A stretch of 64,000 nucleotides of DNA, from the NCBI GenBank assembly GCA_951406725.2, contig OX597818.1, forward strand, positions 112,902,001 to 112,966,000, written 5' to 3'. The position numbers and the translations under genes were made by a program. The stretch is from Octopus vulgaris. Its lineage: Eukaryota. The notes below the pieces were generated by a model that saw only the letters and a list, made by a program, of their open reading frames with translations, did no database searches and was not told the origin of the DNA. This document shows positions 11,850 to 51,942 of this stretch, one piece after another (positions within the stretch are counted from its first letter, which is position 1; each line of letters begins with the position of its first letter).

Positions 11850-12075
11850 GAAATATTAAAATTACTAAGTCTCTCTAAAAGAGAACAACGGCAGCGTTCC
11901 CGGAAAATATTAGTTATCGCCATACTAATATGGCATTCTTATAAAAATAAGAATAAAGCTGACCGCTTATTAGCTCCATGAGGCCATTGCCTTAAGTTAG
12001 CTATTTGATACACAAACTGTATCCATATAACATTTGAACAAGGGAGGTCAGTCGCTCCACACTACTTGGCCGGCG

Positions 12076-12122
12076 GCTACAGACGCGTTTCGGGGTATTG
12101 CCCCTTTTCAATGCAGCGTAGC
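12076..12122 (-). ncRNA. Minimal type I hammerhead ribozyme (U3-A8 variant), inverted unit
   Basis: GCTGCA TTGAAAA GGGG-CAATA-CCCC GAAA CGCG TC^TGTAGC on the minus strand. Confidence 0.75.
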
Positions 12123-12312
12123 CAAACCAGTAGGTGTCGCTTCTGACAATCTCTGTTCAAAGGTTTTATTTACCTAGCTGTCGTTGTTCTCTTTTAGAGA
12201 GACTTAGTAATTTTAATATTTCTATTATTGAAAACAAGTGGATGTATTCCACCGAAGCTAGGTAAATAAAACCTTTGAACAGAGATTGTCAGAAGCGACA
12301 CCTACTGGTTTG

Positions 12313-12359
12313 GCTACGCTGCATTGAAAAGGGGCAATACCCTGAAACGCGTCTGTAGC
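12313..12359 (+). ncRNA. Minimal type I hammerhead ribozyme (U3-A8 variant), unit 1
   Basis: Stem I GCTGCA/TGTAGC, core TTGAAAA, stem II GGGG/CCCT, GAAA, palindromic stem III ACGCGT, GUC cleavage triplet. Confidence 0.75.
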
Positions 12360-12675
12360 TGCCGGCCAAGTAGTGTGGAGCGACTGACCTCCCTTGTTCA
12401 AAGGTTATATGGATACAGTTTGTGTATCAAATAGCTAACTTAAGGCGATGGCCTCATGGAGCTAATAAGCGGTCAGCTTTATTCTTATTTTTATAAGAAT
12501 GCCATATTAGTATGGCGATAACTAATATTTTCCGGGAACGCTGCCGTTGTTCTCTTTTAGAGAGACTTAGTAATTTTAATATTTATATTATTGAAAACAA
12601 GTGGATGTATTCCACCGAAGCTAGGTAAATAAAACCTTTGAACAGAGATTGTCAGAAGCGACACCTACTGGTTTG

Positions 12676-12722
12676 GCTACGCTGCATTGAAAAGGGGCAA
12701 TACCCCGAAACGCGTCTGTAGC
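12676..12722 (+). ncRNA. Minimal type I hammerhead ribozyme (U3-A8 variant), unit 2
   Basis: As unit 1, with stem II GGGG/CCCC. Confidence 0.75.
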
Positions 12723-13039
12723 TGCCGGCCAAGTAGTGTGGAGCGACTGACCTCCCTTGTTCAAAGGTTATATGGATACAGTTTGTGTATCAAATAGCTA
12801 ACTTAAGGCGATGGCCTCATGGAGCTAATAAGCGGTCAGCTTTATTCTTATTTTTATAAGAATGCCATATTAGTATGGCGATAACTAATATTTTCCGGGA
12901 ACGCTGCCGTTGTTCTCTTTTAGAGAGACTTAGTAATTTTAATATTTCTATTATTGAAAACAAGTGGATGTATTCCACCGAAGCTAGGTAAATAAAAACC
13001 TTTGAACAGAGATTGTCAGAAGCGACACCTACTGGTTTG

Positions 13040-13086
13040 GCTACGCTGCATTGAAAAGGGGCAATACCCCGAAACGCGTCTGTAGC
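13040..13086 (+). ncRNA. Minimal type I hammerhead ribozyme (U3-A8 variant), unit 3
   Basis: As unit 2. Confidence 0.75.
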
Positions 13087-13252
13087 TGCCGGCCAAGTAG
13101 TGTGGAGCGACTGACCTCCCTTGTTCAAAGGTTATATGGATACAGTTTGTGTATCAAATAGCTAACTTAAGGCGATGGCCTCATGGAGCTAATAAGCGGT
13201 CAGCTTTATTCTTATTTTTATAAGAATGCCATATTAGTATGGCGATAACTAA

Positions 13253-13300
<48 letters not shown>

Positions 13301-50111: not shown

Positions 50112-50480
50112 GCTTACAAATGTTTTGTCTTTAAACGGAGCAGGACGTTTAAAGTTCGAAACGCACACGAGTTGATGATAAAGTGAATATTTTAGAAATT
50201 GATGTTACTATCTCCAACTGAAGAGTGCACAGCATGTCAATTGATATTGGTGTATGTAAACTATCTTCAAATTCCATCCTCAAGGTAGGCCTATTTTTTG
50301 AAGTGTCCATTGTGTTGCTTGTGTGTGTATTTATCGTGGTTTTTAAAGCTTTCGCTTTCATCTTTGGCAAGGTGTATTTTTACCCTTCTTTTCTTCAAAT
50401 ATTTCATATTATACTTATTAAGGTAGGAGTCTCGCCAACCACCTCATTATTACTGTTTTGGACAGCAATAATGCTTCCAT

Positions 50481-51673
50481 ATTATGGAAAATATAATCAT
50501 AGCTAAGGGTTACTGGAAATGACCATTGCCAATGCTAGAAGCAGATGTAAAATACCTACAAACCACTCTAAAAAGTATTGGATAATTATTTACCTCGAGA
50601 TTTCACGCTCTGAAAACAAAATGTGTATATATATATATATATTTAATCAATATAGGGTGGCAAAAAAAATTTTGTAGAATTCTTTTGCCACCAGCGGCCT
50701 AGTAGGAAAAAAATTAAATAGTCATAGACCATTTTTAAGTTCAACATCAACAATTAAGGAACGGCCATAATAGGCCATTCACCCACTAGAAATAACAGCC
50801 AAAGCTTCAACCGCAAATAAAAGTTAATTCTGTAAACCAGGAGAAAATTTAAAAAACATTTACCCTGTAATTTCTTATACGATATACCGTTTCATCTGCT
50901 GATTAATGGTAAACTAACCTGATTAAATTAAATCAAGCCAATCTTCCACAGGCCCTCAGATTCATCAGTAAGAAATAGCCCAAGTCGGAACAGATATTTT
51001 CACGAGGCATTTCCGACCTTGCCAAGTTTATATCTGACCTAAAATTTTCAAATCGTCGCACTCGCGCCAAATTTATCGGCAGCAAATAAATATAAGCCGT
51101 CGATTCCATTACGGAATTAACCAGAAAATTCATAATTAATCAATATAGGGTGGCAAAAAAAATTTTGTAGAATTCTTTTGCCACCAGCGGCCTAGTAGGA
51201 AAAAATTAAATAGTCATAGACCATTTTTAAGTTCAACATCAACAATTAAGGAACGGCCATAATAGGCCATTCACCTATTTACAGGGTAAATGTTTTTTAA
51301 ATTTTCTCCTGGTTTACAGAATTAACTTTTATTTGCGGTTGAAGCTTTGGCTGTTATTTCTAGTGGGTGAATGGCCTATTATGGCCGTTCCTTAATTGTT
51401 GATGTTGAACTTAAAAATGGTCTATGACTATTTAATTTTTTCCTACTAGGCCGCTGGTGGCAAAAGAATTCTACAAAATTTTTTTTGCCACCCTATATTG
51501 ATTAAATATATATATATATATATATATACACATTTTGTTTTCAGAGCGTGAAATCTCGAGGTAAATAATTATCCAATACTTTTTAGAGTGGTTTGTAGGT
51601 ATTTTACATCTGCTTCTAGCATTGGCAATGGTCATTTCCAGTAACCCTTAGCTATGATTATATTTTCCATAAT
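50481..51673. mobile_element. HHR-bearing partial-tandem insertion with ~390-bp near-perfect inverted duplication
   Basis: 50481-50870 is the reverse complement of 51279-51673. 50643-50783 is directly repeated at 51136-51275 (period ~493). Confidence 0.9.
50870..50976 (-). ncRNA. Canonical type I hammerhead ribozyme
   Basis: Minus strand reads ATTTCTTA CTGATGA ATCTG-(~58-nt loop)-CAGAT GAAA CGGTATATCG TA^TAAGAAAT. 8-bp stem I, intact core, GUA triplet; predicted cut between 50878 and 50877. Confidence 0.85.
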
Positions 51674-51758
51674 GCCAGCAGAGGACTGGAGTCAACCACC
51701 TCTGAAATGTCTTGCTTTGTTCCATAATTGAAACGAATATCATATTTCAACATCATGA

Positions 51759-51942
51759 CCGTGAGCTGTCAGAATCGTTAGCACGCCGCCGCGCCATATA
51801 CTTAACGTCAATTCGGTCGTGCGCACGTTCTTAGGTCGACTTTGACAATTATCCGTTTCGGAATCGATATAGTAAGTACCTGGGGTAGATCTAATCGACC
51901 TACCACTTTCTCGTTAATTGCTGGCCTTTTGCCAAAATTTGT
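51759..51942 (+). mobile_element. SINE family B (decayed)
   Basis: GTGAGCTGTCAGAATCGTTAGCACGCC...GGTCGACTTTG...TAAGTACC...CTGGCCTTTTGCCAAA. Confidence 0.75.

What the first reader, a model, noticed from the sequence alone, without database searches (positions are those of the whole stretch)
50481..51673. Intact hammerhead element whose fold-back copies ~145 bp of neighbouring flank beyond the (TA)n site
Seen: the order is flank(50481-50625)-(TA)n-[a b c a]-[b a]inv-(TA)n-flank inverted, with near-perfect ~390-bp arms. A canonical HHR lies in c (50870-50976, minus), and the inverted arm begins within ~7 nt of its predicted cleavage site. Inference: cDNA primed at (TA)n ran more than one unit around a ~493-nt RNA, snapped back, and copied its own strand through the target site into host DNA. 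This would let ribozyme retroelements generate long palindromes from host sequence.
Basis: partly seen in the sequence, partly recalled or inferred. Interest (0 to 1): 0.75.

Follow-up and report, generated by a model that had tools for sequence, protein, structure and literature searches.

The report
Retrozyme insertion with mirrored host flank
A young copy of a common jumping repeat that carries a self-cutting RNA motif sits between a 145-base piece of host DNA and a perfect backwards copy of that piece, likely because the new DNA strand folded back and was copied too far while the insertion was being sealed; it is a real but rare accident of a kind already reported for human LINE-1.

Summary
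The anatomy is as described. The 492-nt unit is a young non-coding family with hundreds of insertions and a conserved type I hammerhead: a retrozyme with Penelope-type ends. Most copies (43 of 69) are head-to-head, one arm starting at unit base 1, the other near base 102, TA on both sides. This locus departs from that: the second arm runs on through the tail, the TA tract and 145 host bases, then joins host DNA at AAT. Two related organisms lack the junction and hold 200+ bases lost here; another study's sample has the junction. So it is real, and the flank is host DNA. It is rare: 2 of 274 listed loci. The arm's start near the ribozyme cut is common in ordinary copies (11 of 51), so a second, twin-primed cDNA probably made it, and fold-back came next; timing is unresolved. 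LINE-1 makes similar duplications (0.3%). This scan already noted the family in this genome and flank fold-backs in other genomes.

The parts
50481..50625 (+). Host flank, original copy; relic of an older TA-inserted head-to-head mini-element
   Evidence: its join to the DNA on its left is also seen in organism B (loose end at 51673)
50626..50644 (+). (TA)8 target tract and TTT priming junction (the rarer junction form: 148 exact matches against 710)
50645..51137 (+). First pass of the unit (u1-u493), cDNA sense; starts at the outer start site
50645..50745 (+). 101-nt one-sided tail (u1-u101), absent from the second arm of ordinary copies
50870..50976 (-). Type I hammerhead motif with extended stem II; predicted cut after GUA between 50878 and 50877; cleavage untested
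   Evidence: no Rfam match
51138..51275 (+). Second, partial pass (u1-u139)
51276..51278 (.). Head-to-head junction with 3 inserted bases (TAT)
   Evidence: like junctions of ordinary copies
51279..51403 (-). Inverted arm u226-u102, the part that ordinary copies also have (inferred second cDNA)
51404..51503 (-). Extra inverted copy of the tail (u101-u1), A6 where the left copy has A7
51504..51528 (-). Inverted copy of the priming junction and TA tract, (TA)11
51529..51673 (-). Inverted copy of the host flank, 145 of 145 identical
51671..51673 (.). 3-nt microhomology (AAT) at the deletion junction
   Evidence: Contigs of organisms B and C match from 51671 onward
51674..51790 (+). Host DNA: remaining part of an old dispersed repeat whose upstream part was deleted

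Best explanation
A 492-nt hammerhead repeat sits in a TA tract as two head-to-head arms followed by an inverted copy of its tail, the TA tract and 145 host bases, likely because a Penelope-type enzyme copied the RNA from both cut strands and the joined new strand then likely refolded on its own 125-nt inverted repeat and was extended too far before sealing. Steps. (1) Inferred from family anatomy and PMC11167929: both strands of the TA tract are cut and primed, one at unit base 1, the other at base 102. (2) Shown as sequence: the first cDNA ran 1.3 units. (3) Inferred: the second cDNA stopped at u226, near the 5' end left by ribozyme cleavage, and the two were joined head to head. (4) Shown in outcome, inferred in mechanism: the strand paired with its own earlier part and was extended on a DNA template through tail, TA tract and 145 host bases. 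(5) Shown by comparison with two related organisms: it rejoined host DNA at AAT, with loss of the far TA tract and more than about 200 bases. (6) Inferred, weakly: this took place while the insertion was being completed. The polymerase is unknown. No function is suggested.
For: 43 of 69 loci picked by their outer end have the u1 / ~u102 head-to-head form with TA on both sides, and our locus equals that form plus an extension; L105 is a near twin without it. 11 of 51 inverted arms begin at u218-235 against 3.7% by even spread; L058 begins at the same base with a 2-base insert. Both ends share the flank and the rarer priming junction, which needs a DNA template. Organisms B and C continue an old repeat across 51671 in exact register (24.9 of 30 and 15.4 of 25 mean identity to 9 copies; 4.1-6.7 when shifted) with 236 and 202 other letters that are missing from this genome. 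L051 has the same kind of flank copy (37-38 nt) with the second arm still present and the central junction written twice. In both loci the copy looks as old as the insertion: 0 substitutions here; 2 in 113 against 6 differences in about 290 at L051. Intact 775-aa RT plus GIY-YIG frames are in the genome. New LINE-1 insertions show 52-220-bp fold-back duplications, so such copying can be insertion-coupled (PMC10191854).
Against: The second cDNA's own TA end is gone, so it is inferred, not seen. The inverted tail has A6 where its supposed template has A7, and (TA)11 against (TA)8: slippage, later change or sequencing error must be assumed. The cluster of arm ends at u200-235 may partly reflect the A/T-rich stretch there and not the ribozyme; ribozyme cutting was not needed for insertion in vitro (PMC11167929). 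L135 shows that a long-loop fold-back or arm-to-arm copying of 1.26 kb also occurs, which fits the rivals. With no substitutions the two events cannot be ordered in time. No sequence link between the unit and the two Penelope-type families examined was found.
Confidence: 0.48

Rival explanations
1. The element first inserted in the ordinary head-to-head way; later, during replication or repair of a break at the palindrome, a host polymerase switched template at the 125-nt inverted repeat, copied tail, TA tract and flank, and switched back at AAT, deleting host DNA.
For: Needs only two switches, one by long homology and one by 3-nt microhomology. In L051 the central junction is present twice in the same orientation, so it existed before the duplication. 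L135 has 1.26 kb of one arm copied into the other.
Against: At both loci the copy is no younger than the insertion within the small counts available. The contigs of X1 and X2 run unbroken across 51671, so no allele with the ancestral right side showed in them (contigs drop rare variants). LINE-1 gives such duplications in new somatic insertions.
Confidence: 0.28
2. One reading: a single cDNA ran 1.3 units, snapped back onto itself at u226 across a 408-nt loop, and copied its own strand into the flank; no second cDNA was involved.
For: Gives the same final sequence with two switches. L135 can be read as a long-loop fold-back with little microhomology. A nick in the bound RNA at the ribozyme site could favour re-priming near u226 (inference). 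4 of 69 loci have no second arm and no TA beyond, so single-primed insertions with probable deletion exist.
Against: Only about 1 base of microhomology at the turn (read). Landing within u218-235 has a chance of about 4% if random, while 22% of ordinary second arms end there. Ordinary copies often have a second arm longer than the first (for example L062, L111), which snap-back of the first strand cannot give.
Confidence: 0.2
3. The palindrome is a fold-back read chimera or assembly error, or the flank is simply part of the element.
For: No record bridges 51673/51674 with 31 letters on both sides, the tool's strict rule (30 on the left in X1 and X2; 27 on the right in X5). The central junction and the join across the TA tract were not tested with reads. 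The flank does belong to a repeat family.
Against: Every 31-letter word across the junction is in one contig of X1 (depth 72.5) and of X2 (depth 22.6, another sample and study), and a flank contig of X2 has about double that depth (41.7). A chimera would not join at a microhomology inside an ancestral repeat with loss of 200+ bases. The flank accompanies the unit in no other of the 100 locus records examined, L021-L120 (some overlap one another).
Confidence: 0.03

Closest known systems
Metazoan non-LTR retrozymes (PMC7229834, 12 passages seen; bioRxiv 10.64898/2026.07.22.740005, first fifth seen)
   Same: Non-coding, low-GC (35%) tandem units, each with a type I hammerhead; hundreds of dispersed copies; Penelope-like elements in the same genome.
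   Different: Unit of 492 nt is above the 150-450 bp range quoted; insertions are head-to-head with a 101-nt tail; circular RNA and cleavage not tested here; no flank duplication in the passages seen.
Insertion anatomy of endonuclease-bearing Penelope-like elements (PMC8557442 and PMC3846280, passages; PMC11167929, results read in full)
   Same: Partial tandems, adjacent inverted copy, one-sided tail, TA-microsatellite targets, extension of both target strands from two start sites.
   Different: No coding frame; tail 101 nt, not 30-40; here the inverted arm runs past the tail into host DNA and host DNA is lost. No such case in the passages read or in searches.
LINE-1 insertions with short fold-back inverted duplication of target DNA (PMC10191854, section 11 read; bioRxiv 10.1101/2024.12.14.628481, 12 of 17 passages)
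   Same: Rare (4 events, 0.3% plus 0.1%), 52-220 bp of extra DNA synthesis, microhomology at the joins, put down to DNA polymerases during final resolution.
   Different: The LINE-1 short duplications are described on the 5' or reciprocal side; here the primed side is duplicated, together with the element's own tail, and the event is germline and seen in two samples.
Template switching at inverted repeats, fold-back inversions and ODIRA (PMC4689423, PMC10766186, PMC7467729, PMC3907307; search listing only)
   Same: An inverted repeat or hairpin primes copying of neighbouring DNA backwards, closed by a microhomology junction.
   Different: Those are mostly large copy-number changes; here 270 bases are added beyond the ordinary arm and the repeat was supplied by a retroelement.

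Membership tests
Type I hammerhead ribozyme | Core CUGANGA, GAAA, UH with three stems | tested here: met
   Core invariant in 18 of 18 distinct copies, N7 takes all four bases, cut-site base A or C; 99.4% of cells paired, two pairs with changes on both sides (copies are related, so the count is small)
Type I hammerhead ribozyme | Match to a curated Rfam hammerhead model | tested here: not met
   No match at gathering score or at E up to 10; the long stem II may be the reason (inference)
Type I hammerhead ribozyme | Self-cleavage | not testable with these tools
   Minimum-energy fold of the isolated motif lacks stem III; arm ends cluster near the predicted cut, indirect only
Non-LTR retrozyme | Short non-coding tandem units, one hammerhead each, dispersed | tested here: met
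   Arrays of several units at many places; no long frame in the unit. This locus holds only one whole hammerhead
Non-LTR retrozyme | Expression as linear and circular monomer RNA | not testable with these tools
   Only contigs were offered, no raw RNA reads
Penelope-type insertion | Tandem plus adjacent inverted copy, one-sided tail, microsatellite target | tested here: met
   43 of 69 loci; this locus is an exception with two tails
Penelope-type insertion | An autonomous RT plus GIY-YIG partner that recognises the unit | tested here: inconclusive
   Intact 775-aa frames with RVT_1 and GIY-YIG exist, but four loci of two families show no homology to the unit
Autonomous Penelope-like element | Own RT plus endonuclease frame | tested here: not met
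   No such frame in the window
Insertion-coupled fold-back duplication as in LINE-1 | Short inverted copy of target-site DNA next to the insert, absent from the ancestral site | tested here: met
Insertion-coupled fold-back duplication as in LINE-1 | Made in the same event as the insertion | tested here: inconclusive
   No substitutions in either part; no intermediate allele seen, two samples only

The most novel reading that the evidence does not exclude
The Penelope-type enzyme itself switches from RNA to DNA template and runs back through its own primed junction, as a regular side branch of its second-strand step, so that about 1 in 100 insertions of retrozymes and their helpers writes host DNA into a palindrome and deletes neighbouring DNA; and ribozyme cleavage sets where cDNAs end in vivo, although it was dispensable in vitro.
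Probability: 0.2. Interest if true: 0.6.

Novelty: new variant of a known kind. Interest (0 to 1): 0.33.

Why it matters
How Penelope-like elements finish an insertion (second strand, the head-to-head join) is stated to be open (PMC8557442, PMC11167929). Aberrant products are clues: this locus, L051 and L135 show that the new strand can fold back and be extended on DNA through the target junction, and that host DNA can be duplicated and deleted in the act. With hundreds of near-identical insertions the genome allows a count of such events and a test of their timing. As a single locus it is a neutral-looking scar in repeat-rich DNA, the outcome is known for LINE-1, and the rate is low, so it does not make ribozyme elements a major source of host palindromes.

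Tried and rejected
Rfam found no hammerhead; its best hits were microRNA hairpin models far below gathering score, caused by the palindrome: rejected. A genome-wide pattern for two facing outer ends could not be run, so pairs were read by eye from listed matches: 100 of 148, 100 of 710, 100 of 223 (27 already), 7 of 7 (4 already); pairs with different junction forms at the two ends were not sought systematically, so 2 of 274 is a lower bound and one of the two is the query. An outward-facing pair 4.4 kb apart (L134) is two separate insertions. Of two facing inner-end pairs among 100 of 238 listed, L136 has a direct, not inverted, 137-nt duplication. No RNA holder listed: no evidence on expression. 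X6 did not cover the junction; its one contig there is another repeat copy. Pfam found nothing in two Penelope-like fragments. A short-gap hammerhead pattern gave 8 matches in the window against 4.1 expected, none at this locus. PMC9977147 (5 passages) held no flank duplication for Penelope elements. Look-up of earlier findings by sequence gave nothing. Fusion of two sister chromatids primed at the same site was considered and set aside: it needs further breaks and does not explain the shared rare junction. The last genome search with the ribozyme alone returned only young family copies.

Full report
Observation. Arms 50481-50870 and 51279-51673 are 98.2% complementary without a substitution; they differ by (TA)8 against (TA)11 and A7 against A6. 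Segment a repeats at 493 bases. I number the unit u1-u493 from 50645. The order is: flank (145 nt), TA, u1-493, u1-139, TAT, u226 back to u1, TA, flank inverted, other host DNA.

The unit. It is a young family: 1338 first-look candidates, 40 scored, full units at 97-99%, many in tandem; exact outer-end patterns match 148 and 710 times. The minus strand holds a type I hammerhead at 50976-50870. Rfam misses it and the isolated fold lacks stem III, but in 18 distinct copies the core is invariant, the free position N7 takes all four bases, the cut-site base is A or C, and stems I and II each have one pair with a change on both sides. This fits the non-LTR retrozymes of PMC7229834 (12 of 42 passages seen), which bioRxiv 10.64898/2026.07.22.740005 derives from Penelope-like elements (part 1 of 5 seen). 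Cleavage and circles are untested.

The ordinary insertion. Of 69 loci taken in genome order by their outer end (L052-L120), 43 are head-to-head with one arm from u1 and one from about u102 and TA on both sides, 13 have no second arm of 24 bases or more but TA beyond, 5 are inverted with another end, 4 have no arm and no TA, 4 run off the stretch. This is the Penelope pattern of tandem, inverted copy and one-sided tail (PMC8557442, 12 passages; PMC3846280, 10 passages), and the purified anole enzyme extends both target strands from two start sites that bound the tail (PMC11167929, parts 1-2 of 4). Second arms can be longer than first arms (L062, L111), so they are not copies of the first strand. 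Intact 775-aa frames with RVT_1 and GIY-YIG are in the genome (RVT_1 was under its cut-off in one of two), but four loci showed no homology to the unit, so the helper is not identified.

The flank is host DNA. It matches an older repeat at about 40 scored places (79-92%) but is 100% only here; one such copy shows the same TA, head-to-head form. Among 100 locus records (L021-L120, some overlapping), only this one and L051 have an inverted flank copy directly against the element.

The site in other samples. Contigs of X1 (possibly the source of the window) and X2 (another sample and study) run from 51644 across the junction at depths 72.5 and 22.6, and a contig of X5 (same study as X1) holds 161 letters left and 27 right of it. 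None reaches 31 letters on both sides; X1 and X2 miss by one, as expected where the flank has two continuations. In organisms B and C the right-hand DNA matches from 51671 and is preceded by 236 and 202 other letters; the 30 shown are absent from the window and the genome and, with 51671 onward, continue an old dispersed repeat in exact register. Organism B also joins the flank to the left-hand context. So the left flank is the original, the right one the copy, the join uses AAT, and more than about 200 bases were lost. The central junction and the crossing of the TA tracts were not tested with reads.

How often. Facing outer ends were found at 2 of 274 loci listed (read by eye; one is the query). 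L051 keeps an inner-primed arm, then 37-38 bases of inverted flank, TA and a full hairpin, and its central junction occurs twice. Among 100 of 238 listed inner ends, L135 has captured about 26 bases of its own TA-rich flank and 1.26 kb of one arm is a DNA copy of the other, sharing a 12-base deletion and two substitutions private to one pass. DNA-templated copying between arms is therefore a recurring but rare event.

Mechanism. Everything from u101 outward in the right arm needs a DNA template. The question is what made u226-u102 and when. Inverted arms begin at u218-235, just inside the predicted ribozyme cut (u233/234), in 11 of 51 loci against 3.7% by even spread, and small inserts at the turn are common. 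That favours a second cDNA running off the cleaved RNA over a chance landing across a 408-nt loop, though the A/T-rich stretch at u200-216 may add to the cluster. Once joined, the new strand has 125 bases of perfect self-complement, which can prime copying through tail, TA and flank. T at u111 is in all three passes here and in almost no other segment (128 C and 14 A of 143), which points to one RNA template read more than once. Against a clean copy, the A7 of the left tail is A6 on the right. For timing, there are no substitutions in either part, and at L051 the copy is about as diverged as the original arms: weak support for one event. I put twin priming with fold-back during completion at 0.48, a later template switch at 0.28, single-strand snap-back at 0.20, artefact at 0.03.

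Comparison and novelty. New somatic LINE-1 insertions carry 52-220-bp fold-back duplications of target DNA in 0.3% plus 0.1% of cases (PMC10191854, 4 passages and section 11), and bioRxiv 10.1101/2024.12.14.628481 explains inversions and inverted duplications at LINE-1 sites by self-annealing of resected ends (12 of 17 passages). I found no report for Penelope-like elements or retrozymes in searches of an incomplete library; supplements and figures were not seen. Twin priming (Ostertag and Kazazian 2001) was seen only as a citation. Earlier notes of this scan describe the family and its two-start anatomy in this genome and flank fold-backs at Penelope insertions in other genomes; some call the animal an octopus, which I did not check. 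Verdict: real, host-derived, rare; a variant of a known outcome, useful as a clue to how Penelope-type insertions are finished. Interest 0.33.

Noticed in passing
L135:894-5750 (G000:C4:46281393-46286249): 4.8-kb array of the same family that has captured about 26 bases of its own TA-rich flank inside one arm; 1.26 kb of the left arm is a DNA copy of the right arm; a variant at u38 separates the passes of the two original arms.
   Followed up: partly
L136:1716-2660 (G000:C7:21996215-21997159): Both arms start at the inner site (u102), and 137 host bases between two TA tracts are duplicated directly at 100%: an unusually long target-site duplication.
   Followed up: partly
L051:1310-2040 (G000:C11:18414309-18415039): Second locus with an inverted flank copy (37-38 nt); three arms and a twice-written central junction.
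   Followed up: yes
window 50350-50625 and 51535-51673, run X4: In organism B the contigs for the flank and its left context have depths of 76 and 159 against 18 for the right-hand DNA, and one is identical over 108 bases although the right-hand DNA differs by 10 in 280. Unexplained; may be an amplification in that organism.
   Followed up: no
window 12050-13257: Three 363-nt units at 99%, with what looks like a short inverted arm at the left and a TA tract at the right: probably another young family with the same anatomy.
   Followed up: no
window 50130-50480: The left context is another old repeat (302 candidates, 74-88% in the longer matches), often with inverted partners nearby: three generations of such elements lie side by side at TA tracts.
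   Followed up: partly
L052-L120: 23 of 43 ordinary insertions have the two arms ending within 25 unit positions of each other even when they made different numbers of passes, as if both stopped at one break in a shared RNA.
   Followed up: partly
unit u12-u48 (window 50656-50692): Small hairpin in the tail; a G-to-C change at u16 recurs in single passes of unrelated loci.
   Followed up: no
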